Shown: positions 1-19,393, counted from the first letter of the stretch. The stretch is 64,000 nt of DNA from Fuerstiella sp. (GCA_029247265.1 JAQWLN010000100.1:5122-69121); one strand, 5' to 3'. Notes: generated by a model not told the origin, from the sequence alone. Numbers and translations are program-made.

Positions 1-297
1 GTGCGTTTGCTGAACCAGCACTTCTTCATAGCGTCCGTCGACGGTCCTTCCAGGAACTCGCAGCTTTAACATCGCCATCAGGTAACGAAACGCCGGCCCG
101 TCGGTGATGGAACGGGACATGCGGCAACCCGTACCGCCATCGCCGATACCAAACAAGTGAGCATGAATATCAAGCGTGGGAGATCGTTGCACCTCGTCTG
201 CGTCAGTCACATTCGCAAATGAAGGCATTAACCATGGCGACGCCGTGCTGGCCAGGAATGTTCGTCGACTCCAAAGATTCCTCATCATATTCCTCAT
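1..297 (-). CDS. Tat-exported amidohydrolase-family protein, N-terminal part (runs off the window start)
   Basis: Hand translation of the minus strand from ATG 297 (in-frame ATGs also at 300, 288, 285 and 228): MRNMMRNLWSRRTFLASTASPWLMPSFANVTDADEVQRSPTLDIHAHLFGIGDGGTGCRMS... It has a twin-arginine motif (SRRTFL) and a DxHxH metal-binding motif. Not in the ORF track. Confidence 0.75.
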   Translation of the reverse strand, partial: MRNMMRNLWSRRTFLASTASPWLMPSFANVTDADEVQRSPTLDIHAHLFGIGDGGTGCRMSRSITDGPAFRYLMAMLKLRVPGRTVDGRYEEVLVQQTH

Positions 298-316
298 CAT
301 ATTCCTCACTATTTAA

Positions 317-332
317 GTAAGTGTGCACTTAC
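317..332. promoter_or_regulatory. Putative TetR operator GTAAGTG-TG-CACTTAC upstream of the amidohydrolase gene
   Basis: Perfect 7-bp inverted repeat with a 2-bp spacer; the same arms recur at 963-978. Confidence 0.75.
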
Positions 333-349
333 ATATAGGGCAAAAAAAC

Positions 350-943
350 TCACGAATCGTTACTGTTCATCAGACACTCCGCTACGTCTTCAAACATTTT
401 CTCTCGTTGACGTTTTGGCAGCAGCTTCAGCTCTCGAATGATGTTTGACATAGTAGCTAACCCCAGCAGTCCCCATGCAGCCGATTCGGCTGACAATATT
501 GCCTCTGAATGCCCTGGGTTGCGACCGGCATCGACGTGGTGGCACACAAGTTTGTGGAACCGCCTGTACATGCCCGTCAGAGCAGATTGGATCTCCGGGT
601 CGTCAGTTTCGGTCAGGGCAGCAAAGACGATTCGATAAAATCCCGAATCACCCTGATGAATCGTTTCGTATCTGACGATCCGCTGCATGGCCTGCTCAGG
701 AGTCTGACTGTCCTCCAGAAGCTGACTCCATACGACAGACCTTGCCTGAAAAATCTCATCGATAGCTGCCAGGAACATGGCTTTCTTGTTCGGCCACAAT
801 CGGTACAGAATGTTTTCCCGAACACGACATCGCCCAGCCAGTTCGGCGGTCGTTGCACGCCGGTAGCCAAGCTCGCTGAATACCTGACAGACGATTGGTA
901 TCAGCTTCCGGGTTTGCTCTTCAATCTGGCTGGGCCGTGGCAT
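350..943 (-). CDS. TetR/AcrR family transcriptional regulator
   Basis: N-terminal HTH VFSELGYRRATTAELAGRCRVRENILYRLWPNKKAMF; 197 aa, all-helical. Confidence 0.92.
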   Translation of the reverse strand: MPRPSQIEEQTRKLIPIVCQVFSELGYRRATTAELAGRCRVRENILYRLWPNKKAMFLAAIDEIFQARSVVWSQLLEDSQTPEQAMQRIVRYETIHQGDSGFYRIVFAALTETDDPEIQSALTGMYRRFHKLVCHHVDAGRNPGHSEAILSAESAAWGLLGLATMSNIIRELKLLPKRQREKMFEDVAECLMNSNDS

Positions 944-962
944 TCGAATTTGCCTCAGAGGT

Positions 963-1006
963 GTAAGTGTTCACTTACTATACTAGAAGCAGGCCGAGAG
1001 TGTCAA
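963..1006 (-). promoter_or_regulatory. Sigma70-like promoter of tetR (TTGACA-N18-TATAGT) overlapped by operator GTAAGTG-NN-CACTTAC
   Basis: Minus strand: TTGACA at 1006-1001 and TATAGT at 982-977; palindrome at 963-978, 20 bp upstream of the tetR ATG. Confidence 0.7.
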
Positions 1007-1129
1007 CATTGTCGGAGGCAGTTCAGACGACAGTGGGTTTCCGGCCGCCAACTAAGTCGACATTTGTTGCAGCCAGCAGGCCGAGCAGCACAAAACGCAG
1101 CTAAACGCCATGCTGTCTTCGAACGGCCT

Positions 1130-2632
1130 CTATTTCTTCAGGCCGTGGCTTGGATTGTCGCGTCCATCGAAGTATTTGTCGCGAATCCATTTGGGCTGCC
1201 ATTTATCCAGTGTGCGGTTGCTGTTGCTGTATTCGGGGATCTTCGGCTTCGGGTTCTTGACGCTGAGCGGATCCCTGTCTCCGACTCGGGTTCGCCACGA
1301 CTCCATCAACGCCGTCAGGCGTTCAACTTCCGATGCATGTGCCGCATCATCAGCCAGATTGTTCATCTCATGCGGATCTGACTTCAGATCGAACAGAAGC
1401 TGATGATTGATTTGCGGGTAGATGTGCAGTTTCCATCGGCCATCGTTGATAGCGCGCTGATTATCCTGAAACGGCAGGAAGATTGAATCCCGCACTTTGT
1501 TGCTGGTGCCCTGCATGATTGGCGTCAGATCGCGGGAATCGACATCCGGCGGCGGTTTGATGCCGGCAAAGCTGCAAACCGTGGCATACGTATCGTGAAC
1601 GTATGTGAATGCGTCACTTGATTGCCCCTGTGGTATGCCTGGCCCGCTCAGAATCAGCGGGCACTGCATACTCTGCTCATAAATGTTCTGCTTGCCCAGC
1701 AGACCATGGCTTCCCATAGCCAGCCCGTGGTCAGCGGTGTAGACGACATACGTGTTTTCTGCGTGAGGGCTGTCTTTCAGCGCCTGCAGAACGCGTCCCA
1801 CCTGTTCATCCAGATGAGTGACCAGGCCGTAGTATTCGCACAGCTGATCGCCGACAATTTCCGGTGTTCGTGGCCACGGTGCCAGCCCTTCATCACGTCC
1901 CATCGTTGCCTGAGGAGCATTCATGAATGGGTGCTGCGGCAGAAAGTTCTTTGGCAACGGCGGACGTTGGTCATAGTAGATCTTCCGATACGCCTCCGGC
2001 GGATTGCGGGGATCATGCGGAGCTGTGAACGCCACGTACAGAAAGAATGGATTGTCAGCATCAGCGGCCCGGATATAGTCGACAGCTTCATCTGCGAAGA
2101 CAGAACTGGAAAATCCACCCGCGGGACGCTTTGCACTCAGCTCGCCGTCAACAAGATCCTGTACTTCGAAATCGGCATGATTGGCCATGCCACCCATGTA
2201 GACCGACCGACCGGACGAAAATGCCCGGCGCAGTGTCGCCTTGCCGTTGTGCCATTTGCCGACAATGAACGTGCGATAGTCACCTTCCGATTCCAGCACG
2301 GCAGGCAGCAGCGGCAACTGCTTCCAGTCAGATGCGACTTTTTCGGATGGAATGTTCATCCAGTGTCGCCCGGTCATCAGCATCGCCCGACTGGCGACAC
2401 ACACGGCACCGCTGAAGGATCCAGCGCAATAGTTTTTTCGAAAACTGAATCCAGCAGCTGCAAGTTGATCCATGTTCGGAGTCTGAATATGTGGATTCCC
2501 GTGAGCCCCAATCGTGTCGGCTCGTTGGTCGTCCGCAAACAGAAAGATGATGTTCGGCCTGGCATCCGCCGCCTTCATTACGTTCTGCGACGCCAGAAAT
2601 ATCGTGATCAGAAGGAGTGTCGCGTGTTTCAT
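1130..2632 (-). CDS. Sulfatase (choline-sulfatase/arylsulfatase-like), secreted
   Basis: Signal peptide MKHATLLL...; RPNIIFLFADDQ; formylglycine motif variant CVASRAMLMTG; GKWH; ADHG. Start moved from 3004 to ATG 2632. Confidence 0.92.
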   Translation of the reverse strand: MKHATLLLITIFLASQNVMKAADARPNIIFLFADDQRADTIGAHGNPHIQTPNMDQLAAAGFSFRKNYCAGSFSGAVCVASRAMLMTGRHWMNIPSEKVASDWKQLPLLPAVLESEGDYRTFIVGKWHNGKATLRRAFSSGRSVYMGGMANHADFEVQDLVDGELSAKRPAGGFSSSVFADEAVDYIRAADADNPFFLYVAFTAPHDPRNPPEAYRKIYYDQRPPLPKNFLPQHPFMNAPQATMGRDEGLAPWPRTPEIVGDQLCEYYGLVTHLDEQVGRVLQALKDSPHAENTYVVYTADHGLAMGSHGLLGKQNIYEQSMQCPLILSGPGIPQGQSSDAFTYVHDTYATVCSFAGIKPPPDVDSRDLTPIMQGTSNKVRDSIFLPFQDNQRAINDGRWKLHIYPQINHQLLFDLKSDPHEMNNLADDAAHASEVERLTALMESWRTRVGDRDPLSVKNPKPKIPEYSNSNRTLDKWQPKWIRDKYFDGRDNPSHGLKK

Positions 2633-3043
2633 GATCGGGCCGTGCTCGATAGTGGAATTCGGAATAAAACAAGTTACATTTTGACCTACACGGTACTGGC
2701 TCGTGGCAGCAATGAAACTGCAACCGAAAACCGACGTTCGCGGCCACAAGTCAGCGTAAAACGCTGTAGCAAGAGTAAAATAGTCCGGTCGATGCTGAGA
2801 GTTTTCAGATAGTGGTGACCGTGACAGCTGAGATTCCCCAGCCCCGATCGTCCGCGAACATAAAAGATTCCGGGCCGAGTCTCCGTCACAGCACGAGACG
2901 GGGCCAGCAGCATGCTGGTGGTCGCAAGTACATATGAAGTTTTGTCTGTTCACACTTTTCACTCTGAAAAACGATGAGCGAAAGCGCTGCGTGTGTGGAA
3001 TCAAAGACGGCCCGTGAACTGGCGGAAAACACTACCGGCTCTG

Positions 3044-4531
3044 TTATTTGGCGTACGCCGGCCGCCATGGTGTTTTCCCGTCTTTCGGCTGCAGAAACTG
3101 TGCGTCAACGGATTGATACCATGTGTGCAGGCGACCTCGCATCTGTTCGACTCGTTCCGGCATCGCGGCTGCAAGGTCGTTGGCTTCGCCGATGTCGGAT
3201 GCCAGGTTGTAAAGGTGGACCTGACCATCTTCGTAACGTTCTATCAGTTTGAAGTCACCTTCCCGAATGGCGCCACCGGGAATACCGCCCTGGTTGCTGT
3301 AGTGCGGATAATGCCAGAACAGCGACTTGCGAGACAGAGTTTTGCCCTCAAGTGCCGGACGAATGTCGATACCGTCAATGTCGTGTTTCACATTCACGCC
3401 CGCTGCGGTTGCGACCGTTGGGAACAGGTCTATCGAGCAGATCGGTTCGGCACATACAGCTCCCGCCTTTGTGACACCCGGGTATCTCACAATCCACGGT
3501 TCACGAATACCACCTTCGTAGACCCAGCCCTTACCGCCTCGCAGTGGCAGGTTGCTGGTGGGTGAGCCCTCGGACGTGGACAGTCCTCCGTTGTCTGATG
3601 TCAGCAGCACCACGGTGTTGTCTGCGACTCCTGATGCTTCCAGTTGGTTCAAAACCTTGCCGACGGCCTGGTCCATGGCTTCAACCATCGCTGCATAGAC
3701 AGCGTGCTTCTGCAGAATTCGGACTTTGCGCGGCTTGTCGCCGAAGATCTGTTCTTCATCTGCAAACTCTGCACCTGCGATGCCCTCGGCCTTCTTCTTG
3801 TATTTCTCCACCAGATCAGGTCGACCCATCAGCGGCGTGTGGACGGAATAGAACGCCAGGTACGCCAGGAAGGGTTTGTCTTTGTTGGCCTCAATGAAGC
3901 CGGCCGTTTCACGGGCCAGGCGAGCCGGCAGATGTTCGCCGGCCGGACTTTCGACCTTGATCTGTGGATTTTCAAACGGCGCGAAATACCTTTTGCCCGA
4001 ATAAGGACCACCTCGATGGTACCCACCGATATTCACATCGAAACCCCGATTCTGCGGATAGTATTCCTCGCTGCTGCCGAGATGACATTTGCCGGCAAAG
4101 AACGTGGCATACCCTTTGTCTTTAAGTGCCTGAGCGATCGTAATTTCGTCCAGAGGCATGTTGTCGTTCAACGGGGCTGGACGGAATTTCCCACCTCTCT
4201 TGCCGGAAAAGAAATTCGTGGCCCGCACGCGTGTTGGGTATTTACCCGTCACCAGGCTGTACCGAGTTGGTGAACAGACGGGATTGGCCGCATACCCGTC
4301 TGTGAATCGTAGACCGGTTGCCGCCAGTCCATCGATGTTGGGCGTTTCGTAGAAGCAGTTGGGGTTATTGGCCCCGATATCCATGTAGCCCAGGTCATCG
4401 ACCAGAATCACAACAATGTTCGGCGTGTTTGCTGAACGACTCCCAGCTGCGCCAGCCAGAGGACCAAATGAATTCACGATCACTGCCAAAGCAAATAGTC
4501 GTGAAATGAATTGCCACTTCATGATGTTCAT
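3044..4531 (-). CDS. Sulfatase (arylsulfatase A-like), secreted
   Basis: PNIVVILVDDLG; CSPTRYSLVTG; TSDNGG; RGGKGWVYEGGIR; signal peptide. Start is 4531 or 4522. Confidence 0.95.
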   Translation of the reverse strand: MNIMKWQFISRLFALAVIVNSFGPLAGAAGSRSANTPNIVVILVDDLGYMDIGANNPNCFYETPNIDGLAATGLRFTDGYAANPVCSPTRYSLVTGKYPTRVRATNFFSGKRGGKFRPAPLNDNMPLDEITIAQALKDKGYATFFAGKCHLGSSEEYYPQNRGFDVNIGGYHRGGPYSGKRYFAPFENPQIKVESPAGEHLPARLARETAGFIEANKDKPFLAYLAFYSVHTPLMGRPDLVEKYKKKAEGIAGAEFADEEQIFGDKPRKVRILQKHAVYAAMVEAMDQAVGKVLNQLEASGVADNTVVLLTSDNGGLSTSEGSPTSNLPLRGGKGWVYEGGIREPWIVRYPGVTKAGAVCAEPICSIDLFPTVATAAGVNVKHDIDGIDIRPALEGKTLSRKSLFWHYPHYSNQGGIPGGAIREGDFKLIERYEDGQVHLYNLASDIGEANDLAAAMPERVEQMRGRLHTWYQSVDAQFLQPKDGKTPWRPAYAK

Positions 4532-5078
4532 GTTTTGATCCTGTCCTGTCTGAGCGACGACAAACACCTTTTCTGCTCGGAGCGCCCTGATGTGGAAACG
4601 CTGCGAAAATAAATAAAATCCTGATTGGTTCCACGTCGTGGTGAGTGCGAGTGACCCCCTTCTGAATTCCCGAATTCAGGCGTCTGTCATTATGCGCACG
4701 GTCCTGAAGATTGTCAGCCTGCACGGATATGTGTCCTGTGATATGCCCGTTTTCGCTGCATCGCAACAGTTTCAAGTGGTCGGTCGTGGCTGACGCGATG
4801 GCGAACATCGTATCTGCGGCCCATGATGCGGGACTTAACGACTGACTCCGCCCATAACGGCAACGGGATTGTTTCAATCGGTGTAATCGGAAAACTGTCG
4901 TCAGTGAGAAATGTTTACCGGACTGTCTGGACCTGAACCTTTCGGCGACAAAATTGAAGAGTAGGCATTGATCTGACAGCCAAATCCGGCATGTACCCCA
5001 TGGGTGGGTAATAGTTCGGCGAACTAACGAAGCACGATGTACCTACCCTTACCGATTCGAGATATTGGAGAATTGTCC

Positions 5079-5534
5079 ATGAGAAGTGTTCTTTCACTGT
5101 TGGCCGTAGCTGTCATGAGCGGTGTTGTTGCACCTCAGTCTGTCGAAGCTGGCCTGTTCGGTCATTTCAAACGATCCAGTTGCGACTCATGTGCTCCTGA
5201 AGCGACCTGTGCAGCTCCATCCTGTTGTGCACCAGTGGCCGCAACATGCTGTGCACCTGTTGCTCCAACCTGCTGTGCCCCCGCACCTGTCTGCTGCGAA
5301 CCAGAGCCTTGCTGTGACCCCTGCGGCAAGCGTCGCTGCCGTCTGTTTTCCGGTCGTCTGTTGAGAAAGTTGCGACATAAGAAGGCCTGCTGCCCGGATC
5401 CATGCTGCGAGCCAGCACCGGTATCATGCTGTGCACCAGCTGCTCCATCATGCTGTGCTCCAGCTGCACCATCATGTTGTGCTCCTGTAGCCGCATCATG
5501 TGCTGCTCCTGCACCAGCACCACCAGCAGAGTAA
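5079..5534 (+). CDS. Secreted Cys/Pro/Ala-rich repeat protein (CCAP repeats)
   Basis: RBS GGAG at 5067-5070; signal peptide ending VEA; ~26 Cys, mostly as CC pairs in (S/T)CCAP units; followed by a terminator. Confidence 0.85.
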   Translation: MRSVLSLLAVAVMSGVVAPQSVEAGLFGHFKRSSCDSCAPEATCAAPSCCAPVAATCCAPVAPTCCAPAPVCCEPEPCCDPCGKRRCRLFSGRLLRKLRHKKACCPDPCCEPAPVSCCAPAAPSCCAPAAPSCCAPVAASCAAPAPAPPAE

Positions 5535-5575
5535 TCGCGACATGTAAATTGGCATCCGCGACATACTGAAGAATC

Positions 5576-5605
5576 AAAGGCCGGTGACATTCGTCACCGG
5601 CCTTT
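5576..5605. terminator. Intrinsic terminator, probably bidirectional
   Basis: AAAGGCCGGTGAC-ATTC-GTCACCGGCCTTT: perfect 13-bp stem with A-run and T-run ends, between convergent genes. Confidence 0.85.
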
Positions 5606-5731
5606 CTTCGTGCGCGAGCTGAAACGAAGGGACATTGTGTTTATTTGAAAACGCTGAACGTCCGCTGCTTACGTTGCTCGCTGATTCGGGAGAGCGTCCG
5701 AGCTTTGAAGACTCAATGGTGGTCGCCAGGC

Positions 5732-6190
5732 CTATTGTTCCAGGTAAGGCTTGAGTCCTTTAGCCAGCAGGTCCGTCCAGCCGGAATGCAGCGAATCGAC
5801 CTGCTTCTGGCTGACATGTCCCGACAGGGGGTCTGTCATCGTCAGCAGTGTGCCGTCTCCATCATCGGCCAGGCGAAATGAGAGCATCGATGTTGCCGGA
5901 CCACCCCATTGTGGAGTGCAGAATCCAACCACATCAAGGGATTTTTCGACATCAAAGGCCAACACCGTATACCACAGCAGTCCGCCACCTTCGGTCTCTT
6001 CGTACATACGCCCACCGGGTTTCAGTTCAAGCGTCACAATCGAATCCGTGCCCAACATGTGAAAGTCCGGAAGCCACCATGCATTCAGCTGATCCGTCAA
6101 ACCGCGCCAGACCCGATCCTTCGATGACTGAATCGAAACACTTACCTCGTAGCTGGTGACGCCGGCTTCGGTAATAGACACTTGAGGCAT
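5732..6190 (-). CDS. SRPBCC/AHSA1 (START-like) domain protein
   Basis: SVSIQSSKDRVWRGLTDQLNAWW...LELKPGGRMYE...GWTDLL; downstream of an ArsR gene, a common pairing. Confidence 0.85.
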   Translation of the reverse strand: MPQVSITEAGVTSYEVSVSIQSSKDRVWRGLTDQLNAWWLPDFHMLGTDSIVTLELKPGGRMYEETEGGGLLWYTVLAFDVEKSLDVVGFCTPQWGGPATSMLSFRLADDGDGTLLTMTDPLSGHVSQKQVDSLHSGWTDLLAKGLKPYLEQ

Positions 6191-6240
6191 GTTGTTCTCG
6201 TTTCTCGGATTGTGACGACCGCGATCAGGCTGCTGCTCAT

Positions 6241-6602
6241 CTACGGTTCGGCAGGTGTCGGACTTGTGATATCAGCTTCGACGACTTCTCTGAGCCGGTC
6301 CAGTGAACTCGCCATCCGCTGAGCATGCGCCTGCACCCAGGGCCGGCACACAGTTTGAAGAGGTTTGTTGTTCAGGATGTTCCAGCGCTGCCGACCTCGT
6401 CTCTGCACAGAAACCAGGTTGGCTGCAGTGAGTACATCCAGATGCTTCATCACCGCCGTCCGGCACAGCTGTGGAAACAATTCCACAAGCTCACCGGTCA
6501 TCAGCGCCTGCCTGGCCAGTTCTTCCACCATCCGACGACGGACTCCGTCAGACAGCGCTTTCCAAACCAGATCTTTCTGCTGCTCGCTTAACGTGTTGCC
6601 AT
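6241..6602 (-). CDS. ArsR/SmtB family regulator (5' end has a probable 1-nt frameshift)
   Basis: The frame of ORF 6241-6531 extends upstream as ...LSEQQKDLVWKALSDGVRRRMVEEL...TGELVELFPQLCRTAVMKHLDVLTAANLV. The nearest upstream ATG (6602) is one nt out of frame. Confidence 0.75.
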
Positions 6603-6773
6603 ATGGTGATATGTTGTGACGGACGTGTCAAAACGGACTGATGGGAAACGGACGGCATGCGCGCATTCCGAGTGAGTGGTGGTAAGCTGACTGCGTCTTC
6701 CTTGTCTGTTAATCTGCAAAGGTCGACTGAAAACAGTTCTGTGGCCCGGCTTTCGCTTGTCGGTGCCCGACGA

Positions 6774-8930
6774 ATGAAACATTTTTCAATTACTGTGGTT
6801 ACATCAATGCTCCTTAATACACCAGAACGTATCGCTGTTGCAGGCGTGCGCAGACTTTCCGCCGCTCACTCTGTGTTGGCAATCCTGCTGGTCTGTCAGA
6901 CAGCAGCTTCGGCAGACGACATCTGGGATGTTGTCGTTTACGGCGGCACCAGCGCCGCGGTAACCACTGCAGTTCAATGTAAAGCGATGGGTAAGTCCGC
7001 AGTGATCGTCTGTCCGGACAGACACCTGGGCGGACTGACATCCGGCGGGCTCGGGTGGACGGATTCAGGAAACAAAGACGCCATCGGTGGGCTGAGTCGC
7101 GATTTCTACCACCGTGTCTGGAAACACTATCAGAAGCCGGAATCATGGAAGTGGGAAGACCAGGCGAAATTCGGCAATCGTAATCAGAGTCCTCCAGGCA
7201 AGTCCGGCAGTGGTGGATCGGCAATGTGGGTCTTCGAACCGCACGTTGCCGAACACATTTTTGAGCAGATGATTTCCGAAGCAAATATACCCGTGTACCG
7301 CGACGAATGGCTGGACCGCAGGCCTGGCACAGGTGTCAATGTCACCGATGGTCGCATCAACTCCATCACGATGCTCAGCGGCAGAACGTTTCTCGGACGG
7401 ATGTTCGTGGATGCAACTTACGAAGGTGACTTGCTGGCCGTCGCCGGGGTTGATTATCACGTTGGCCGCGAAGCGAACTCCGTCTACGACGAAGAATGGA
7501 ACGGAATTCAGGTGGGCGTGCTGCATCACAGTCATTGGTTTAAAACACCAGTGGATCCCTACCGAATCGTCGGCGATTCGTCGAGCGGTCTGCTGCCCGG
7601 GATCAGCAACGAATTGCCAGGCACCCGAGGTGACGGTGACCATCGTGTGCAGGCCTATTGTTTCCGGATGTGCCTGACGAATGTTGACGACAACCGCATA
7701 CCGTTTGTGAAACCGGAAGGATACGACGCATCGCAATACGAATTACTGCTGCGAGTCTTCGATGGTGGCTGGCGACAGATGTTTAACAAATTTGATCCCA
7801 TGCCCAACCATAAGACAGACACAAATAATCACGGTCCGTTCAGCACCGACTACATCGGCAGAAACTATGATTACCCGGAGGGCAGCTACGAACGCCGCCG
7901 CGAAATCATTCGTGAACACGAAGTTTATCAGCGGGGGCTGATGTACTTCATGGCGAATAATTCATCAGTTCCTGCGGACGTTCGCGCAGCGATGTCAAAG
8001 TGGGGTCTGTCAAAGGATGAGTTCAAAGACAACGCCGGCTGGCCTCACCAGATTTATGTGCGTGAAGCACGTCGCATGATTGGTAAATACGTCATGACAG
8101 AACATGACTGCCTGGACCGCGTGGAAACACCGGGTTCCGTTGGTATGGGGTCGTATACGCTGGATTCTCACAACGTGCAGCGCTATGTCACGCCGGACGG
8201 TCTCGTGCAGAACGAGGGTGACATCGGAGTGCATGCGCCACGGCCATACGAAATTTCTTACGGCTCTATCGTGCCAAAGAAGGGGCAGTGTGAGAATCTT
8301 CTGGTGCCGGTCTGTGTGTCATCCAGCCATATTGCTTTCGGGTCGATTCGCATGGAGCCTGTCTTTATGGTTCTGGGGCAGTCTGCTGCTACGGCCGCCT
8401 GCCTGTCGCTGGACAGAAATATCGCGGTCCAGGATCTGCCTTATAGTCAATTGAAGACGCGTCTGCTGGCAGATGGTCAGGTGCTCGAGATGGAAGACTC
8501 GTACGTGAATTCGTCTCGAAAAATGAAGGGAACAGTTGTCGATGACCATTCGGCGACGTTCATTGGAAACTGGCAGGGCTCAGCTGCAAACAAGCCATTT
8601 GTCGACAGTGGTTATCGACACAACGGCAACACAGAGCAGGGGCAGAAGTCTGCTCTGTTTGAAGCAAAACTGAAGCCGGGCCGGTACGAAGTACGGCTGT
8701 CGTATCCGCCCAACAGCAATCGAGCGGAAAACGTTCCTGTGACCGTCATTCACGCCACGGGCTCGAAGAGCATCCGAATCAATCAGCGAGAAAAACCCCC
8801 GATTGACGGAATCTTCGTCAGCCTTGGTCAGTTTTCATTTCATGACGTTGCCAAAGTGGAAGTCGGCACGGCAGACACCAACGGCCATGTCATCGTCGAC
8901 TCGGTACAGTTTCTGCCTGCAGGCAGGTGA
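6774..8930 (+). CDS. Secreted FAD-dependent oxidoreductase (FAD_oxidored type) with a C-terminal golvesin/xanthan-lyase-type beta-sandwich domain
   Basis: DVVVYGGTSAAVTTA; HLGGLTSGGLG; FVDATYEGDL; YVREARRMIG; SHIAFGSIRMEPVFM; C-terminal VVDDHSATFIGNW...GHVIVDSVQF. Start uncertain (6774 or 6807). Confidence 0.88.
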   Translation: MKHFSITVVTSMLLNTPERIAVAGVRRLSAAHSVLAILLVCQTAASADDIWDVVVYGGTSAAVTTAVQCKAMGKSAVIVCPDRHLGGLTSGGLGWTDSGNKDAIGGLSRDFYHRVWKHYQKPESWKWEDQAKFGNRNQSPPGKSGSGGSAMWVFEPHVAEHIFEQMISEANIPVYRDEWLDRRPGTGVNVTDGRINSITMLSGRTFLGRMFVDATYEGDLLAVAGVDYHVGREANSVYDEEWNGIQVGVLHHSHWFKTPVDPYRIVGDSSSGLLPGISNELPGTRGDGDHRVQAYCFRMCLTNVDDNRIPFVKPEGYDASQYELLLRVFDGGWRQMFNKFDPMPNHKTDTNNHGPFSTDYIGRNYDYPEGSYERRREIIREHEVYQRGLMYFMANNSSVPADVRAAMSKWGLSKDEFKDNAGWPHQIYVREARRMIGKYVMTEHDCLDRVETPGSVGMGSYTLDSHNVQRYVTPDGLVQNEGDIGVHAPRPYEISYGSIVPKKGQCENLLVPVCVSSSHIAFGSIRMEPVFMVLGQSAATAACLSLDRNIAVQDLPYSQLKTRLLADGQVLEMEDSYVNSSRKMKGTVVDDHSATFIGNWQGSAANKPFVDSGYRHNGNTEQGQKSALFEAKLKPGRYEVRLSYPPNSNRAENVPVTVIHATGSKSIRINQREKPPIDGIFVSLGQFSFHDVAKVEVGTADTNGHVIVDSVQFLPAGR

Positions 8931-9140
8931 GCAACTCGTCCGCCGCACGGAATCCGCATTTCAGTACGGTGCAGGAACAACACCGAAATCAGGGTCGGAA
9001 GTCAGGGCGCGGGGCCGAGCACAGGTCGCTGTTGACGAGATTTCGGGACTTGGAGAGAATTCTCGCCCACATGGATGTGACGTCTGCTGCACTGACGTCC
9101 AGTTCCCGAACGAATTGCACCTCCCGGCAGGACGCCTGGA

Positions 9141-10655
9141 ATGAACGACACGACCTTAAGTCTGCAGCAACTGCTGCCCGAGGCTCAGTTTGTCAACTGT
9201 CGTGACATCGCTATTTCGCGTGTTTCAACGGACAGCCGCAGAATCCATCGCGGAGACGTGTTTGTCGCTGTTACCGGAAACACATACGACGGCCACGGCT
9301 TTATCGATGAAGCCATCGCCAGGGGAGCAGTCGCGATTGTCGTCCAGCGATTCATTAGCAACAGCAGCATTCCTCAGTGCATTGTGAATTGTACGGCGAC
9401 TGCACACGCATTGACATCAATGGCTCTGGCTGTTGGTCAGCAGCAGTCGACGACTGTCGCGGGAATCACCGGAACCAATGGCAAGACAACGACGTCGTGG
9501 ATGCTGCGTTCAATTCTGGAATCGGCCGGCCATCGCACTGGCCTGATCGGCACGATCTGTACGAGCGATGGAGTCGATTCCACGTCATCGATGCTGACAA
9601 CACCCTCGGCGGGAGTCCTTGCCGACCACTTTCGTCGAATGAGTCTTGCCCGGACTTCTCACTGTGCGCTGGAGATCAGCAGTCACGCTCTGGTACAGAA
9701 ACGGTGTGCCGGCATTCACTTGTCTGCTGCGGCGATTACAAATGTGACTCAGGACCATTTTGATTATCACGGGACTCAGGACGCCTACGAGGCGGCAAAG
9801 GCCGACATCACCAGCCTGTTATATCCCGAGGCACCACTGCTTCTGAATGCAGACGATCCTGGCTGCCAGAGCATCATGAAACGTCTCGATCGTGACACGC
9901 GCATTGTGACCTACGGAAACGACAACCCTGCGGCGGAATTGCGTTCGACGGTGTTGAGGAAAACGCATCGTTCTCAGCGTGTGCGATTGAGTCTGGCTCA
10001 GGGTGACGCAGAATTTCGGTTGAGACTCATTGGTCGACACAATGTCTCGAACTGTCTGGCGGCGGCCGGAATTGCGGAGCAGTTGGGAATCAGTCTTTCA
10101 CATATCGTGGATGGACTGCAGGCACTTCACGCCGTTCCCGGGCGTGTCGAACGCATTGATGAAGGCCAGCCGTTCCAGGTTCTGGTGGATTATGCTCACA
10201 CTCCCGACGCATTGGCACAGTGTCTCGACGCGGTTCGTGATTTTGTGCCGGGCCGACTCATCTGTGTGTTCGGAGCTGGAGGAGAACGTGATCGCAGCAA
10301 ACGGCCTTTGATGGCCCATGCAGCGATGGCCGCGGACGTTGCTATCGTCACATCCGACAATCCTCGCAGTGAAGATCCCGGCCAGATCATCACAGACATC
10401 ACCGCTGGATTCTCTGCAGACGCTGTTTACGTGTCAGAAACCGATCGCCAGCAAGCGATCTCGGTGGCGCTGGAACAGGCTGAACCTGGCGACGTGGTTG
10501 TCGTTGCCGGCCGAGGGCATGAACGAACACAGGAATCGGCCGGCGCAAAGCTGTCATTTGACGACCGCGAAGTGGTCCGTCAATTGTTGCGTGCAGCGGA
10601 CTGCTCGGTTGTAGACAATTTGCAGCCGCGATTCTCGATTCAGAGGTCGGCATGA
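9141..10655 (+). CDS. murE: UDP-N-acetylmuramoyl-dipeptide--meso-DAP ligase
   Basis: GITGTNGKTTT; EISSH; DHFDYH; VDYAHTPDAL; CVFGAGG-RD--KRP; SDNPRSEDP (DNPR, the DAP-specificity motif). Confidence 0.93.
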   Translation: MNDTTLSLQQLLPEAQFVNCRDIAISRVSTDSRRIHRGDVFVAVTGNTYDGHGFIDEAIARGAVAIVVQRFISNSSIPQCIVNCTATAHALTSMALAVGQQQSTTVAGITGTNGKTTTSWMLRSILESAGHRTGLIGTICTSDGVDSTSSMLTTPSAGVLADHFRRMSLARTSHCALEISSHALVQKRCAGIHLSAAAITNVTQDHFDYHGTQDAYEAAKADITSLLYPEAPLLLNADDPGCQSIMKRLDRDTRIVTYGNDNPAAELRSTVLRKTHRSQRVRLSLAQGDAEFRLRLIGRHNVSNCLAAAGIAEQLGISLSHIVDGLQALHAVPGRVERIDEGQPFQVLVDYAHTPDALAQCLDAVRDFVPGRLICVFGAGGERDRSKRPLMAHAAMAADVAIVTSDNPRSEDPGQIITDITAGFSADAVYVSETDRQQAISVALEQAEPGDVVVVAGRGHERTQESAGAKLSFDDREVVRQLLRAADCSVVDNLQPRFSIQRSA

Positions 10656-10878
10656 ATCGTCAGAGCAATATTCCCGATGCTGCCGGTAATCCGTGCGGGC
10701 ACCTCCGGCAAAGGTCTGTGCGTGTCACCGACTTTGATGAATTTGGACTTATTCGTGCGGGCAGCCCACGTCGATGTCACAGTCAGCATCAGTTTGCCAT
10801 TATCGGCAATAATTGCCGCAAAGGCATTCACGGAAGAAATGCCGAGGCTCAGCGATGCGGAAAAGGCTGACTTGAACA

Positions 10879-12276
10879 ATGCATCCGCTAACTGTCAAAC
10901 ACGTTTGCGAAATTGTTGACGGAACGATCTGTGGTGAGGTCAACGTCGCAGCCACTGCGGATGGGTGCGTCATCGACAGTCGGCACGTGCAGCAGGGTGA
11001 TGTATTCATTGCGCTGTCAGGCACGCAGACCCACGGAGTCGAGTACTGTGCAGCGGCGCTGCGCGATGGAGCCGTGGTTGTCATTGTGGAAGAGTCTGTG
11101 GCAGACGCATGTCTCACACCACACATCAGCGTCGCAGATGCTGAGCTGGCGCTCGCACAACTCGGCTGGCAAAATCGTCAGTACAGCGATGCGCTGGTGG
11201 TTGCGGTCACAGGCAGCGTGGGTAAAACAACCGCACGTCGCATGATTGCCGCCATGCTCGAATCCGTGCACACGGGAATTCAGAGTCCCCGCAATTTCAA
11301 TAATCATCTGGGAGTGCCAATCAGCCTGCTGGAACTTCAGAGTGGTGACGAATTTGCAGTGATTGAAGTGGGTTCATCCGCGCCGGGAGAAGTGGAAATG
11401 CTGGCGTCGGTCGCTCGACCCGATTTTGCCGTCGTCACGACCGTGAGCCCTGCCCACCTTGATGAACTGACATCGCTGAAGGCCGTGCAGCAGGAAAAGC
11501 AGGCGCTGGTCGAATCGCTTTCAACAGACGGCGTGGCCTTCCTGAATATTGATGATCCACTTGTCGCTGAGATGCAGAAATCAGCGTCCGGGCGTGTTGT
11601 GACCTTCGGCACAGCAGAGTGGGCTGAGGTCCGTGCAACTGCCGTCGTGACGTCCGATGAGTCGCTTAGGCTGACGGTGGACGGAGACGAGTACACTGTG
11701 CGAGCCTGTGGCCGTCATAATGTGACAAACGTACTGGCAGCGATCGCCATCGGCCTGGAAGTAGGCATCGCCCCCGAGCAGATCAATGCCGGACTGGCGA
11801 CGTATGAGCCGGAAGCAGGCCGCTGCTGTCTGTTGCAGATTGGTGCCTGGACCGTTATCGACGATACCTACAACGCCAGTCCGGCCGCCGTCAACGCTGC
11901 CATTCGGACGGCCGAAGATTTCCAGCATTGCCGCCATCGCGTGCTGGTGCTGAACGACATGCTGGACCTTGGTGACCAGGCGGCCGACCTGCACTATGGA
12001 ATGGGTGCGGCGCTGGCAGCGTCAACGCTCGATCATATTGCAGTCACCGGAAACTTTGCGGGCGACGTTGTCGATGGTTTCCTTGCGTCCGGCGGGGCAC
12101 TGAATCGAATTTCCTGCTTTGCCAGCCTGACAACGCTGACAGCCATGCTTGACTGCCTGCTGTGCGACAACGACCTTGTGCTTGTCAAAGGCTCACGCGC
12201 CACCCGCATGGAGCAGGTCGTCGAATCACTCAGGCAACTGGCGCTCACGGATGTTGCGGAACGTCGGGCCGCCTAG
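10879..12276 (+). CDS. murF: UDP-N-acetylmuramoyl-tripeptide--D-Ala-D-Ala ligase
   Basis: AVTGSVGKTT; NFNNHLGVP; DDTYNASP; VKGSR; directly after murE. Confidence 0.9.
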   Translation: MHPLTVKHVCEIVDGTICGEVNVAATADGCVIDSRHVQQGDVFIALSGTQTHGVEYCAAALRDGAVVVIVEESVADACLTPHISVADAELALAQLGWQNRQYSDALVVAVTGSVGKTTARRMIAAMLESVHTGIQSPRNFNNHLGVPISLLELQSGDEFAVIEVGSSAPGEVEMLASVARPDFAVVTTVSPAHLDELTSLKAVQQEKQALVESLSTDGVAFLNIDDPLVAEMQKSASGRVVTFGTAEWAEVRATAVVTSDESLRLTVDGDEYTVRACGRHNVTNVLAAIAIGLEVGIAPEQINAGLATYEPEAGRCCLLQIGAWTVIDDTYNASPAAVNAAIRTAEDFQHCRHRVLVLNDMLDLGDQAADLHYGMGAALAASTLDHIAVTGNFAGDVVDGFLASGGALNRISCFASLTTLTAMLDCLLCDNDLVLVKGSRATRMEQVVESLRQLALTDVAERRAA

Positions 12277-12352
12277 CGTCTCTTGTTGCGCGTCGGAATG
12301 AACGCACCCTGCCGGACTCGAATCTCTCGCGGGGCAGAACTCTTCTGTCGTT

Positions 12353-13387
12353 TCAATTGTCGGCCAGTTCCCGGTTCAGCACGTCGACCATCATCCGCAA
12401 CCTGCCGACGGCACGTCGATTGAACGTAAACGACAGTCGCGGAAGTTCTTTCAGATGCACATCGTCGGCTTCCAGTTTGTGAGGTTGGGCCTTTTCAATG
12501 CGTCCGGATTCCACAACGTCCTGAAACTCATCATTAAGCCGTTCGATCAGCTCATTGGATGGATCGCGGTGCAGTCTGAGTACAAGCCGATCGCGGACAA
12601 ATCGCATGCTGTTGTACACGCTGTAAAATCCCAGAACTTCGTCGATGGCTTCTTCGACGTCGTCCGTGACCTTGAACAGGCTCATGTCACTGGGCGAGAT
12701 CATTCCTTTTTCGAGCAGTTCCGTTTTGATGTAGTTCAGCCAGCCTGACCAGTACGTGCCGCCTGGCCGGTCCAGAAAGACCATGGGCATCAGGTCACGT
12801 TTTCCCGTCTGGACCAGCGTCAGTGTTTCGAACGCTTCATCCTGAGTTCCGAATCCTCCCGGACAGGAAACGACAGCATGGACTTCCTTTACGAATAACA
12901 GCTTGCGCGTGAAGAAGTATTTCAGGTTGACCAGTTTGTCGTCACCTTCGATAACAGGATTCGCTTGCTGTTCGAACGGCAGCAGGATGTTCAGCCCCAT
13001 TGCCATTTCACGACCGGACCCGGCATGAGCGGCCTCCATAATTCCGCCACCGGCGCCGGTGACCACCATCCAGCCTTCTTCGGCGATGCGTTTACCAAAC
13101 AGTTCTGCCTGTTGCCACTCGGGAGATTCGGGGGCCGTTCGCGCCGACCCGAACACGGTGACTTTTCTGTTACGTCGATAGGGCGTAAACACCTTAAACG
13201 CGTAACGCAGTTCTCGCAGGGCGCGGCTGAGAATCTTCAGGTCGCCGCGAGTTGCTCCGTCGGCCGCCAGCTTGTCCGCCGTTGCTTTGATTTCCTGAAT
13301 CAGTTCAGAATGTTTGCGAAGTTCCGAAACATGTTCGATCACTTCCAATTCTGAATCACGCGGATGGGTGAGATGCTTTTTCGCCAT
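12353..13387 (-). CDS. LOG family nucleotide 5'-monophosphate phosphoribohydrolase (TIGR00730-like, long type)
   Basis: VTVFGSART; [10 protein letters not shown]; KYFFTRK; PGGFGTQDE motif; RBS GGAGG before ATG 13387. Confidence 0.9.
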
Positions 13388-13498
13388 TTGCTCATTGCCT
13401 CCGTGCGAACACATTCGCCAGAACTGACGTCAGGATTCACCAGCGACGCCAACGTGTGCGGGGCGCCGAATCAGGTATGGCGCGGGTGTGCCGCTCCT

Positions 13499-13864
13499 TC
13501 AGCCATCAATCGCCTGCATGGCTTCGCTGCGAGTATCGTAGATGGCCCAAATCGTATCCAGAGCTGTAATCTTCAAAAGTTCACGAGCCATGTCGTTGGC
13601 GCCACACAGAACCAGTTCGCCGCCACGACGCTTCAGGAACTTATGACATCGCAGCAGCAATGCCAGAAATACGGAACCGAAGTAGCCCACGTCCTTCAGG
13701 TCCACAATCACAAGCGGAACTTCCTGGGTCGCCAGTGGGTCCATAATGACGTCAGCCGCCTGTTCAACAAGGTCCCAGTTGAGTGACTCGACCGATTTTG
13801 CCGGGACCACGACGACAACGTTGCCATGCCATTCGATTTCGAAACTGTCCAGAACTTCTGACAC
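13499..13864 (-). CDS. STAS-domain anti-sigma factor antagonist
   Basis: [37 protein letters not shown]...LLKITALD. Confidence 0.9.
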
Positions 13865-14073
13865 GAATCACCTCGCAACAATAGAATTTTGTGAGCGAAA
13901 GGATGCTATCAGAGACACCGCCCTACAGCCAACCATGGTCGATGCCAGTATATCGGAGCATTTTGCGGGTACCGCGGCGTGTCGTGTGACAAACAGCGTT
14001 CGTCAACATCCACTTCCGGCGAGCGGTTTCAATAACAACGTTCTGACAGCTGATTGGCGCGAAATAGCTGACG

Positions 14074-17043: not shown

Positions 17044-17497
17044 GGGAATCCTTCCCCTGCCATAAAAATGATGGCGCGACGCCCCCATCAGACATCGCCA
17101 AACGTCCGTGTACCTGCTGCACTTCTACCAGATATGCAAAATCACTGAAAGATGTGTTTGGGCAGACGAAAACGGGAGTTTCGGCGAAATCTGCAGCCTG
17201 AGCGGGCACTGGCAAGTTCACTGCACAGTCGTGGCAAGCATCACGTCGAGATGTGTGTGAGAACAACAGCCGCGTTCTGAATAAGTCGGACCTCATCAAA
17301 GACAAGCGCATAATACGAGCACGCAGCGCCAGCATGTGATCGGGGCGCCCCGTGCCTCGTCGGAGCCACAGGTCGCAGGCCGAAAACGTCTTGTGCGGCC
17401 ACGAATCAGAGAAATACGCAATAGCGGCAATCTTGACATTTCTGTTTGCCAGAGTCCCTCGGTCAGGACCTCAAACCAGAGTCGATTCCTGCCCCGA

Positions 17498-17616
17498 CGG
17501 TCGTGAGTTACGACCACCACGTAGCTGGTTGAAGCGACGTAACTGGCGGTATCGGGCACCAGAGCCGTCACGGTATAGGTTCTTCCGGTCCCGGTTCCTT
17601 CCCGCTCAGACCGTAG
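17498..17616 (-). pseudogene. C-terminal relic of a secreted protein (LRxER-G-G-GR-Y...V.V.HD module)
   Basis: Hand translation LRSEREGTGTGRTYTVTALVPDTASYVASTSYVVVVTHDRR resembles the LRAERxGxGxGRxY...VxVPHD terminal module of large secreted proteins. No N-terminal part is present. Confidence 0.5.
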
Positions 17617-17682
17617 TGCAGGAGTTCCCGCGAAACGATTCGTGGCAACGTTGCAACCAAAAGGACTGGTGACATCCGTGGG

Positions 17683-17889
17683 GCAAATCCGAAGTCCGCT
17701 GAAACCCGGGCACGTCTCTGGACGTAGCTAACTGAGGAACTAACGGCTCAGGGTGATCCTCGCATCCTGGGCAATGGGCAGATCCTGGACTTCTATCCTG
17801 ACGGCCGCATTGATCGTCAGCAACAGTTATACGAGAAACCGGAATTTGATCCGGTGCAACTGTTCGAAGACAAGTTCGGGAGTGAGTGA
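17683..17889 (+). pseudogene. C-terminal relic of a sulfatase (N-sulfoglucosamine sulfohydrolase-like)
   Basis: ANPKSAETRARLWT*LTEELTAQGDPRILGNGQILDFYPDGRIDRQQQLYEKPEFDPVQLFEDKFGSE*, with an in-frame TAG at 17725-17727. The xGDPRxLGxG tail is typical of such sulfatases. Confidence 0.55.
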
Positions 17890-19373: not shown

Positions 19374-19393
19374 ATGACGAAAGAGAACGATTT

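What the first reader, a model, noticed from the sequence alone, without database searches (positions are those of the whole stretch)
5079..5534. Secreted ~26-Cys CCAP-repeat microprotein with a basic core
Seen: after a signal peptide, the ~127-aa mature chain is roughly 20% Cys. Two blocks of (S/T)CCAP(V/A)A(A/P) repeats flank a strongly basic segment (GKRRCRLFSGRLLRKLRHKK). It is monocistronic, with its own RBS and a strong terminator. Established: planctomycete envelopes were described as Cys- and Pro-rich; vicinal-Cys repeats characterise disulfide-crosslinked structural proteins (keratin-associated proteins, chlamydial OmcA) and metallothioneins. Inference: a self-crosslinking envelope, stalk or holdfast protein, or a periplasmic metal sink. 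The symmetric Cys-basic-Cys layout would suit polymer formation on an anionic surface.
Basis: partly seen in the sequence, partly recalled or inferred. Interest (0 to 1): 0.62.

Follow-up and report, generated by a model that had tools for sequence, protein, structure and literature searches.

The report
Secreted cysteine-doublet repeat protein of planctomycetes
This is a real, well-transcribed gene for a small exported, unfolded protein that is one-fifth cysteine; it belongs to a large, undescribed planctomycete family that most likely forms disulfide-linked envelope material, though nobody has tested what it does.

Summary
ORF 5079-5534 (+) encodes 151 aa: a Sec signal peptide, then a 127-aa mature chain with 26 Cys (20.5%), 18% Pro and 21% Ala. 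Ten CC doublets lie in two (S/T)CCAP blocks around GKRRCRLFSGRLLRKLRHKK.

The gene is real. The Cys frame is the only frame open end to end in all homologues, and dN/dS is 0.04-0.20. The RBS and the terminator hairpin are conserved, the hairpin with a compensatory change.

It is transcribed. Seventeen marine metatranscriptome runs hold it, against none for an equal-length neighbouring stretch. In the RNA runs laid, it has the deepest and most complete coverage in 60 kb.

It belongs to an uncurated planctomycete family: 356 clusters at 50% identity, with no Pfam or NCBIfam model. The shared layout is signal peptide, GLF, CC(A/E)P heptads or octads, one to five basic or His-rich GLFxxFKK linkers, and often a CGCN or CCGM end. 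The gene always stands alone, and ten contexts share no partner gene. AlphaFold finds no fold. Cys parity is random, and repeat number varies between strains.

Best reading (about 0.4): a disordered, disulfide-crosslinking envelope or matrix protein, convergent with keratin-associated proteins. Main rival (about 0.25): an exported metal-thiolate binder. The function is untested.

The parts
4868..5078 (+). Conserved upstream region, taken to be promoter and 5' leader. No known RNA family matches it.
   Evidence: Well conserved with L009 and L015 although synonymous sites in the CDS are diverged. The only laid contig from a labelled RNA run that reaches upstream of the ATG starts at 5042; a contig in X42, a run of unrecorded type, starts at 4997. 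Rfam gives no hit in this region.
5068..5073 (+). Ribosome-binding site GGAGAA
   Evidence: Read directly from the sequence. It is invariant in the three-way alignment.
5079..5534 (+). CDS of the 151-aa Cys-doublet repeat protein (P0001), stop codon included
   Evidence: dN/dS is 0.116-0.156 against orthologues. It is the only frame open from end to end in all homologues.
5079..5150 (+). Sec-type signal peptide MRSVLSLLAVAVMSGVVAPQSVEA, with a signal peptidase I site V-E-A|G
   Evidence: An n/h/c-region layout is visible in the sequence. A22, A24, G25, L26 and F27 are invariant or nearly invariant in alignment A1. AlphaFold predicts a helix at residues 2-15. There is no lipobox.
5151..5180 (+). 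Mature N-terminus GLFGHFKRSS, a short copy of the linker motif GLFxxFKK
   Evidence: 119 of 157 family members in which a cleavage motif could be located begin GLF; see also the alignment.
5181..5324 (+). N-terminal Cys block: 5 CC doublets plus 4 single Cys, with an (S/T)CCAPxxx repeat of period 6-8 aa
   Evidence: This is the most constrained part of the protein, with dN/dS 0.05.
5325..5384 (+). Basic core GKRRCRLFSGRLLRKLRHKK (9 K/R and 1 His in 20 aa)
   Evidence: Homologous linkers occur across the family. It is not significantly amphipathic.
5385..5531 (+). C-terminal Cys block: 5 CC doublets plus 1 single Cys, then an Ala/Pro tail. The number of repeats varies between strains.
   Evidence: 24-nt tandem repeats. 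Relatives at 90% identity or more carry 1 to 5 SCCAPAAx units.
5576..5605 (.). Intrinsic terminator hairpin (13-bp stem, ATTC loop) followed by CTTC. It lies between convergent genes, so it probably acts in both directions.
   Evidence: z = -4.7 for the 91-nt stretch 5535-5625. Conserved in L009 and L015 with a compensatory pair change. RNA contigs end at or before 5571.

Best explanation
**What it is.** The gene encodes a small protein that is exported by the Sec pathway and cut by signal peptidase I after VEA. The mature chain begins with GLF. It has no fold of its own.

**How it is built.** Stiff Pro/Ala spacers carry a cysteine doublet every 7-8 residues. Short hydrophobic-plus-basic linkers (GLFxxFKK type) interrupt these spacers.

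**Proposed mechanism (inferred, not shown).** Outside the cytoplasm the doublets form disulfides, mainly between chains or to other Cys-rich envelope proteins. In an extended chain the two thiols of a doublet point to opposite sides, so each doublet can act as a branching node. The basic linkers would hold the chain on an anionic surface such as lipid A, peptidoglycan or acidic glycans.

**Result.** A covalently netted envelope or matrix layer, working like hair keratin-associated proteins but of independent origin.

**Shown here:** the gene is real, carries an export signal, is under purifying selection and is transcribed; it belongs to a family, has no predicted fold, has no parity constraint on Cys number, and varies in repeat number.

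**Inferred:** the disulfide state, the partners and the location.
For: **Real coding gene.** dN/dS is 0.04-0.20. The Cys frame alone is open in every homologue.

**Export.** The signal peptide and the A-x-A|GLF junction are conserved across the family.

**High, apparently constitutive expression.**
- 17 marine or aquatic metatranscriptome runs hold the gene, against 0 for an equal-length neighbouring stretch.
- In the five RNA runs laid, across 60 kb and several dozen genes, it has the most complete coverage. Depth is 3-8.5 in four of them, the highest in those runs.

**Composition and repeat grammar.** Cys, Pro and Ala make up 60% of the mature chain. The unit (S/T)-C-C-(A/E)-P has a period of 7-8 residues, and Pro follows at CC+2 in 1144 doublets. 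This is the CC-x-P grammar of high-sulfur keratin-associated proteins. NCBI itself names a family member from a cultured strain 'keratin-like protein'.

**No intramolecular fold.**
- AlphaFold mean pLDDT is 53, with only the signal helix predicted.
- Cys count parity is 82 even to 75 odd.
- Repeat number changes between strains at 90% identity or more and by one 24-nt unit in run X5.
All three fit a network former rather than a defined disulfide fold.

**No partner genes.** Ten contexts share no maturase, transporter or metal gene.

**Background from the literature.** Planctomycete walls were proposed to be mainly protein. Cys-rich YTV proteins dominate cell-wall preparations and are linked to wall rigidity (PMC8567305, PMC12673574, PMC10632474).

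**Why proteomics would miss it.** Trypsin yields only one usable peptide, GLFGHFK. The cited cell-wall proteome required at least two peptides of 7 aa or more (PMC8567305 methods).
Against: - There is no direct evidence on the redox state of the cysteines, on location or on partners.
- The basic linkers are no more amphipathic than shuffled sequences, so a membrane-helix anchor is unsupported.
- Some relatives carry His runs (HHHHCHHHHH in L008; His-rich linkers in P0071, P0097 and P0195) or CGC in place of CC (L007, P0025). These features point to metal binding rather than crosslinking.
- The expression evidence comes from assembled contigs of runs that were chosen because they hold this gene. 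It is semi-quantitative and carries no strand information.
- The resemblance to keratin-associated proteins is in composition and motif only. No Pfam keratin model matches.
Confidence: 0.4

Rival explanations
1. Exported metal-thiolate binder: a metallothionein-like sink, buffer or chaperone for Cu(I), Zn, Cd, Hg or As(III) in the periplasm or on the cell surface. The closely spaced thiol pairs would chelate or bridge metal ions. The chain would fold only around the metal.
For: - Cys is 20% of the chain, there is no Trp or Tyr, and no fold is predicted for the apo form.
- There is no parity constraint on Cys number.
- CC is interchangeable with CGC in some members (L007, P0025).
- His-rich linkers or His runs occur in a subset (L008, P0071, P0079, P0097, P0195).
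- From established knowledge: vicinal Cys pairs bind As(III) in ArsD and Hg(II) in MerT and MerA, and the copper storage protein Csp1 is an exported Cys-rich protein.
- An ArsR-family gene lies 700 bp downstream in this window.
Against: - The protein is exported into an oxidising compartment of an aerobic marine bacterium, where 26 thiols are unlikely to stay reduced.
- Rigid Pro-rich spacers are atypical of metallothioneins.
- No metal-related gene recurs in ten contexts.
- The ArsR/SRPBCC pair is convergent, missing from the closest orthologous loci (L009, L015) and deleted in the strain in run X5.
- It is expressed in ordinary seawater metatranscriptomes.
- No metallothionein model in Pfam or NCBIfam matches.
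Confidence: 0.25
2. Secreted bioactive peptide or peptides, for example an antimicrobial or signalling product. The basic GLF-type segments would be the active or processing sites, and the Cys blocks would form stabilising disulfides.
For: - The protein is small, cationic (net charge +4) and secreted.
- The mature N-terminus GLFG and the GLFxxFKK linkers recall cationic peptides (a resemblance recalled from memory; a lead, not a test).
- The modular repeats of linker plus Cys block in P0054, P0027 and P0195 look like polyprotein precursors.
Against: - The linkers are not amphipathic beyond chance: 6% reach p<0.05.
- No immunity, transporter or maturase gene occurs in any of ten contexts.
- Random Cys parity and variable repeat number argue against a defined knotted peptide.
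- The family appears confined to planctomycete-type contigs, wherever a source names an organism, and sits at syntenic chromosomal positions, unlike typical bacteriocin loci.
Confidence: 0.08
3. Extracytoplasmic redox buffer or sacrificial thiol/disulfide reservoir, for example a protectant against oxidants or a substrate or partner of the Dsb system. The vicinal or CxC thiol pairs would cycle between reduced and oxidised states.
For: - There are many closely spaced thiol pairs, including CGC variants. By established chemistry, CxC motifs mimic disulfide isomerase activity.
- Expression is high.
- One relative (L017) has a thioredoxin/AhpC-family gene 2.6 kb upstream.
Against: - No oxidoreductase neighbour recurs across contexts.
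- There is no known precedent for such a protein.
- Vicinal disulfides are strained and rare.
Confidence: 0.07
4. Not a protein-coding gene in this frame: a low-complexity repeat or an antisense gene. A 142-aa ORF is open on the minus strand at 5162-5590.
For: Several other frames are partly open across the repeats. Public gene callers have called an antisense ORF over the Botrimarina homologue.
Against: - Only the Cys frame is open from start to stop in all 14 loci examined.
- dN/dS is 0.04-0.20.
- The signal peptide, the RBS and in-frame indels are conserved.
Confidence: 0.02

Closest known systems
Mammalian high-sulfur and ultra-high-sulfur keratin-associated proteins (KAPs; Pfam Keratin_B2 PF01500 and Keratin_B2_2 PF13885)
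   Same: - Cys is about 20-30% of the chain.
- Cys occurs as CC doublets followed by x-P, in short tandem repeats.
- The proteins have no globular fold.
- Repeat number is polymorphic.
- The presumed role is as a disulfide crosslinker.
- NCBI names one family member 'keratin-like protein'.
   Different: - This protein is bacterial and Sec-exported.
- The repeat period is 7-8 residues (CC-A/E-P-x-P-S/T), not pentads.
- It has GLF-basic linkers.
- No profile match exists, so the likeness is convergent, not homologous.
- There is no keratin partner.
Planctomycete YTV-domain cysteine-rich cell-wall proteins (Hieu 2008, Sagulenko 2017 and Mahajan 2020, as cited in PMC8567305 and PMC12673574)
   Same: - Both are restricted to planctomycetes, secreted and Cys-rich.
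- Both are proposed to stiffen the envelope through disulfides.
- This is the only Cys-rich envelope family with experimental (proteomic) support in the phylum.
   Different: - P0001 has no Tyr at all and no YTV motif, and no Pfam YTV model matches.
- It is much smaller.
- It is built from CC doublets.
- It is nearly invisible to tryptic proteomics.
Chlamydial cysteine-rich outer-membrane complex proteins OmcA (small lipoprotein) and OmcB
   Same: - Both come from the PVC superphylum.
- OmcA is also a small exported protein with a high Cys content.
- The chlamydial proteins form an intermolecular disulfide network that gives envelope rigidity.
   Different: - There is no lipobox, and the cleavage site is of the signal peptidase I type (A-x-A|G).
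- There is no sequence match.
- The architecture is repeat-based and disordered.
Metallothioneins and exported Cys-rich metal stores (bacterial SmtA/BmtA, MymT; the copper storage protein Csp1)
   Same: - Small size, Cys-rich, few aromatic residues and disordered without a ligand.
- Some relatives add His runs or CxC motifs.
   Different: - This protein is exported and Pro-rich.
- Nearly all its Cys are CC doublets rather than mixed CxC/CxxC clusters.
- There is no profile match.
- There is no metal-gene neighbourhood.

Membership tests
Uncurated planctomycete CC-P repeat secreted protein family (defined here by profile A1) | Significant profile or sequence similarity over the whole length to many small planctomycete proteins | tested here: met
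   56 hits at E<=0.01 with the single sequence. The profile finds 356 clusters at 50% identity with E<=1e-3 and 91 with E<=1e-10. A second profile search finds 201 hits at E<=1e-6.
Uncurated planctomycete CC-P repeat secreted protein family (defined here by profile A1) | Sec signal peptide ending A-x-A, followed by GLF (or F-x-LL) | tested here: met
   P0001 reads VEA|GLFG. 119 of 157 members in which a cleavage motif could be located start GLF.
Uncurated planctomycete CC-P repeat secreted protein family (defined here by profile A1) | Tandem (S/T)CC(A/E)P repeats of period 7-8, interrupted by one or more basic or His-rich linkers of the GLFxxFKK type | tested here: met
   P0001 has 10 CC doublets, 9 CCxP motifs and one 20-aa basic core.
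Keratin-associated proteins (Pfam PF01500 / PF13885) | Match to the Pfam profile | tested here: not met
   hmmscan against Pfam-A returned 0 families at E<=10.
Keratin-associated proteins (Pfam PF01500 / PF13885) | CC-x-P repeat grammar with about 20% Cys or more | tested here: met
   This is a resemblance in motif only.
Planctomycete YTV-domain proteins | Repeated YTV motif or a Pfam YTV domain | tested here: not met
   The mature chain has no Tyr, and Pfam gives no hit.
Chlamydial OmcA-type small Cys-rich lipoprotein | Lipobox with Cys at +1 (signal peptidase II site) | tested here: not met
   The cleavage region is PQSVEA|GLFG, and the first Cys is 11 residues further on.
Metallothionein (SmtA/BmtA, MymT and other Pfam/NCBIfam models) | Profile match | tested here: not met
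   Searches returned no family at E<=10.
Metallothionein (functional class) | Stoichiometric binding of d10 metals by thiolate clusters | not testable with these tools
   Needs purified protein and ICP-MS or spectroscopy.
RiPP precursor (radical-SAM or other maturase-dependent Cys-rich peptides) | Adjacent maturase or transporter genes, and a leader peptide rather than a Sec signal | tested here: not met
   Ten contexts contain no recurrent maturase or ABC transporter. The protein has a Sec-type signal. NCBIfam gives no hit.

The most novel reading that the evidence does not exclude
This family would be a major part of the cystine- and proline-rich, SDS-resistant envelope material reported in planctomycetes in the 1980s.

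It would have escaped every proteome because trypsin leaves only 5-kDa peptides with 11-14 Cys each, plus one 7-mer.

If so, planctomycetes independently evolved a keratin-matrix-like disulfide network. That network would be the counterpart of the chlamydial cysteine-rich outer-membrane complex, and one of its most highly expressed envelope genes would have no annotation at all.
Probability: 0.2. Interest if true: 0.8.

Novelty: new variant of a known kind. Interest (0 to 1): 0.55.

Why it matters
**The open question.** The chemistry of the planctomycete envelope is a long-running problem. It moved from a 'protein wall rich in cystine and proline' to the discovery of peptidoglycan, and the identity of the cystine-rich material is only partly explained by YTV proteins.

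**What this family adds.**
- It is widespread in the phylum, with hundreds of clusters.
- It is strongly transcribed in the sea.
- No family database annotates it.
- Standard tryptic proteomics would miss it almost by design.

**If it is structural.** It would be a bacterial analogue of hair-matrix proteins and a new building block of PVC envelopes.

**If it binds metals.** It would be a new class of exported thiol-rich metal buffer in abundant marine heterotrophs.

**Testability.** Either answer can be tested in a cultured strain: Botrimarina mediterranea carries a family member.

Tried and rejected
- **Amphipathic helix in the basic core.** The helical hydrophobic moment of 187 linkers from 135 proteins was no higher than in shuffles. 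The median was 0.516 against 0.52, and only 6% reached p<0.05. For P0001 itself p = 0.33. AlphaFold predicts no helix there. Rejected as a family feature.
- **ArsR neighbour as regulator (smtA/smtB-like).** The ArsR/SRPBCC pair is convergent. It is absent in the orthologous loci L009 and L015 and deleted in the strain in run X5. Rejected.
- **Conserved operon partners.** None was found in ten contexts.
- **Known RNA element in the long conserved 5' region.** Rfam matched only the terminator hairpin, weakly.
- **Structural comparison.** The model is too poor (pLDDT 53) for a fold search to mean anything, so none was run.
- **PDB sequence search.** Only a chance hit at E = 2.1.
- **Fixed intramolecular disulfide fold.** Cys parity is random and repeat number is variable. 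Rejected.
- **N-block and C-block symmetry.** It holds (5+5 doublets) in P0001, P0003 and P0004, but not in P0005, P0006 and others. It is not a rule.
- **Alignment-based locus search.** It failed because no stretch was conserved enough. The single-protein search worked.
- **Own-genome searches.** The number of paralogues, the Dsb inventory and the taxonomy of the window's own genome could not be determined.
- **Literature.** No paper describing this family was found.

Full report
**1. Observation**

The region 5079-5534 (+) is an ORF of 151 codons. A GGAGAA box lies 8 nt before the ATG. The in-frame ATG at 5037 is not conserved, since L015 has AAG there, so 5079 is the start.

Residues 1-24 (MRSVLSLLAVAVMSGVVAPQSVEA) have the n/h/c layout of a Sec signal with a V-E-A|G signal peptidase I site. 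There is no lipobox.

The mature 127-aa chain has 26 Cys (20.5%), 27 Ala, 23 Pro and no Trp or Tyr. Ten CC doublets fall into two blocks of five. Spacings within the blocks are 8, 8, 7, 6 and 5, 8, 8, 8 residues, either side of GKRRCRLFSGRLLRKLRHKK.

Tandem Repeats Finder reports 24-nt periods in both blocks. No other stop-free stretch in any frame of the 64-kb window has more than two CCxP motifs; this one has nine.

A 13-bp hairpin lies at 5576-5605. The 91-nt stretch around it folds at -38.8 kcal/mol, z = -4.7. It sits between this gene and the convergent SRPBCC gene. It is conserved in the orthologous loci L009 and L015, with a compensatory G-C to A-U change and a longer T run.

**2. It is a real protein-coding gene in the Cys frame**

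Across 14 homologous loci, the Cys frame is the only one open from start to stop in each. Antisense and shifted frames are open only in patches, as expected for GC-rich repeats.

Nei-Gojobori dN/dS:

| Comparison | dN/dS | Note |
|---|---|---|
| window vs L009 | 0.156 | |
| window vs L015 | 0.116 | dS 0.85 |
| other family pairs | 0.04-0.20 | |
| N-terminal Cys block, window vs L015 | 0.05 | most constrained part |

Indels between relatives are in frame and are whole repeat units. Proteins at 90% identity or more carry 1 to 5 SCCAPAAx units. A strain in DNA-like run X5 lacks exactly 24 nt at 5226.

**3. It is transcribed, apparently strongly, as a single-gene unit**

Seventeen metatranscriptome runs from many marine, seawater or aquatic studies hold 31-mers of 5060-5620. 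An equal-length neighbouring stretch, 5700-6260 (the SRPBCC gene), is held by no RNA run.

In four RNA runs from two studies, the assembled contigs cover 5042-5571 and nothing else between 4400 and 6400. The table shows everything that laid on window 1-60000 across the five RNA runs examined.

| Region | Runs with a contig | Depth |
|---|---|---|
| This gene | all five (X25-X29) | 3-8.5 in X25-X28; 2.7 in X29 |
| STAS gene 13499-13864 | X28, X29 | 2; 4.5 |
| DUF11 gene 14074-17088 | X25, X29 | 2.8-3.3; 2 |
| 28.4, 34.5, 41.5 and 44.2 kb | one run each | 2.3-4.7 |

A few chimeric contigs also left fragments of 17-32 nt elsewhere in the window.

Caveats:
- The runs were chosen because they hold this gene.
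- Contig depth is only a rough measure of expression.
- Contigs carry no strand information.

The control and the empty flanks still show that the signal is RNA from this gene and not contaminating DNA.

About 210 nt upstream (about 4868-5078) are well conserved with L009 and L015. They match no Rfam family. Upstream gaps of 270-780 bp recur at all loci.

**4. Family**

- phmmer-type search finds 56 relatives at E<=0.01.
- A 22-sequence profile finds 356 clusters at 50% identity with E<=1e-3, and 91 with E<=1e-10, among 1.84 billion representatives.
- A second profile search finds 201 hits at E<=1e-6.
- Wherever a source names an organism, it is a planctomycete: Fuerstiella, Planctomycetaceae, Pirellulaceae, Pirellulales or Botrimarina. 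The one exception is a 'Chitinophaga' MAG contig. Its protein is nearly identical to one in a Planctomycetaceae MAG, which I read as a binning error.
- The window itself carries planctomycete hallmarks: PSCyt1/PSCyt2/PSD1 plus DUF1501, and several sulfatases.
- No Pfam or NCBIfam model matches at E<=10, and no PDB sequence does.

Shared layout:
- The signal peptide ends A-x-A and is followed by GLF, in 119 of the 157 members where a cleavage motif could be located.
- The repeat unit is (S/T)-C-C-(A/E)-P-x-x(-x). The period is 7 residues (486 spacings) or 8 (218). Pro follows at CC+2 in 1144 doublets.
- There are 0 to 5 (mostly 1 or 2) Pro-free basic or His-rich linkers of the type GLFxxFKKxRR. 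The mature N-terminus (GLFGHFKR) is a short copy of this motif.
- Many members end in ...CGCN, CCN, CCGM, CGCGH or CCH. The clade of the window protein ends in an Ala/Pro tail instead.
- The median Cys content of mature chains is 20.4%, with a maximum of 31.7%.

**5. Context**

| Locus or loci | Flanking genes |
|---|---|
| L009, L015 | sulfatases / esterase |
| L012, L017 | ankyrin or hypothetical / hydantoinase B |
| L014 | DHQ synthase |
| L019 | OmpH-LpxC-LpxA cluster / PEP carboxylase |
| L021 | AIRC / prepilin-type N_methyl protein |
| L023 | Hpt / DUF1598 |
| L024 | Mrp-SufE / CDGSH |
| L026 | seryl-tRNA synthetase / VTT-domain protein |

In all ten contexts the gene stands alone. No maturase, transporter, oxidoreductase or metal gene recurs.

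In the window the downstream ArsR/SRPBCC pair is convergent and is not part of the conserved synteny. A strain in run X5 lacks 5770-8308 altogether.

**6. Structure and sequence logic**

AlphaFold2 with the family alignment gives mean pLDDT 53 and pTM 0.16. Only the signal helix is predicted. The mature chain is best regarded as intrinsically disordered or extended.

Cys number shows no parity preference, 82 even to 75 odd, and repeat number drifts. A fixed intramolecular disulfide fold is therefore unlikely.

I tested the attractive idea that the basic core is a cationic amphipathic helix. It failed: hydrophobic moments equal those of shuffles. The linkers are better described as a short hydrophobic patch (GLF..F/L) followed by a basic cluster.

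**7. Mechanism**

*Crosslinking (about 0.4).* The most economical reading is a Sec-exported, unfolded chain. Its evenly spaced thiol doublets form intermolecular disulfides outside the cytoplasm. Its basic linkers bind an anionic envelope polymer. The result would be a covalent net. In working principle this resembles keratin-associated proteins, the chlamydial cysteine-rich outer-membrane complex and the planctomycete YTV wall proteins. Four observations fit it:
- high apparent expression without any special condition;
- the composition;
- the lack of a predicted fold;
- the lack of partner genes.

The literature on Cys-rich wall proteins in this phylum also fits (PMC8567305, PMC12673574, PMC10632474).

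*Metal binding (about 0.25).* The main rival is an exported metal-thiolate binder. Some relatives have His runs or CGC pairs in place of CC (L008, L007, P0025, P0071, P0097, P0195). That favours metal coordination at least in those members.

*Minor rivals.* A bioactive peptide and a redox buffer remain possible. A non-coding or antisense artefact is excluded.

None of these functions has been tested by anyone, as far as the searchable literature shows.

**8. Why it may have been missed**

In-silico trypsin digestion of the mature chain gives peptides of 52 aa (14 Cys) and 49 aa (11 Cys), a few fragments of 5 residues or fewer, and a single usable 7-mer, GLFGHFK. The published planctomycete envelope proteome required at least two peptides of at least 7 residues after trypsin (PMC8567305 methods).

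Gene callers are also confused by the repeats. Over the Botrimarina homologue an antisense 248-aa ORF is called as well. In several records the N-terminus is over-extended.

**9. Comparison with earlier notes of this scan**

Earlier notes describe sibling Cys-repeat families in other planctomycete genomes and reach the same two candidate functions. I treated them as leads only.

New here:
- the transcript evidence with a control;
- the selection analysis;
- the strain-level repeat polymorphism;
- the definition of the GLF-linker module;
- the negative amphipathicity test;
- the parity test;
- a cultured carrier.

**10. Verdict**

It is a new variant of a known kind (Cys-rich, disulfide-type envelope proteins of PVC bacteria), and it belongs to a family that no database or paper describes.

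Paralogue number and the Dsb inventory of the window's own genome therefore remain unknown.

Noticed in passing
window 5770-8308: A strain in DNA-like run X5 joins 5769 directly to 8309. This removes the SRPBCC gene, the ArsR gene and the 5' two-thirds of the FAD oxidoreductase/golvesin-C gene (2539 bp). X5 depth is zero across the gap.
   Followed up: partly
window 5226-5249: The same X5 strain lacks 24 nt, exactly one CCAPVAxT octad, in the N-terminal Cys block. This is in-frame repeat-number polymorphism.
   Followed up: yes
window 2732-2763 (and L017/L018 6494-6516): A 32-nt element (reverse complement CGTTTTACGCTGACTTGTGGCCGCGAACGTCG) lies upstream of the sulfatase gene. Many contigs in runs X29, X42 and X43 match it alone, each with different flanks and with locally high depth. 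A near copy lies just after the stop codon of the Cys-rich gene in L017. It occurs once in this window and has no Rfam match. It may be a dispersed planctomycete intergenic element.
   Followed up: partly
window 13499-13864 (-) and 14074-17088 (-): A STAS-domain anti-sigma-factor antagonist gene and the large DUF11-type protein gene are the only other parts of window 1-20000 that appear as contigs in the metatranscriptome runs.
   Followed up: partly
L026/L027 6001-6540 (Botrimarina mediterranea CP036349.1 / CP036350.1): A cultured Pirellulales species carries a family member (P0214) with two basic linkers, which NCBI names 'keratin-like protein'. A 248-aa antisense ORF (5707-6453) is also called over it and is probably spurious.
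   Followed up: partly
L008 5593-6246: A distant relative combines CCAP repeats with a GGCGGGCGGCGGGCGGGCG run and HHHHCHHHHH. This looks like a nickel- or zinc-binding His/Cys tract joined to the repeat family.
   Followed up: no
window 6241-6531 (-): The ArsR-like ORF gave no Pfam hit at E<=1e-5 as delimited by the ORF finder.
   Followed up: no
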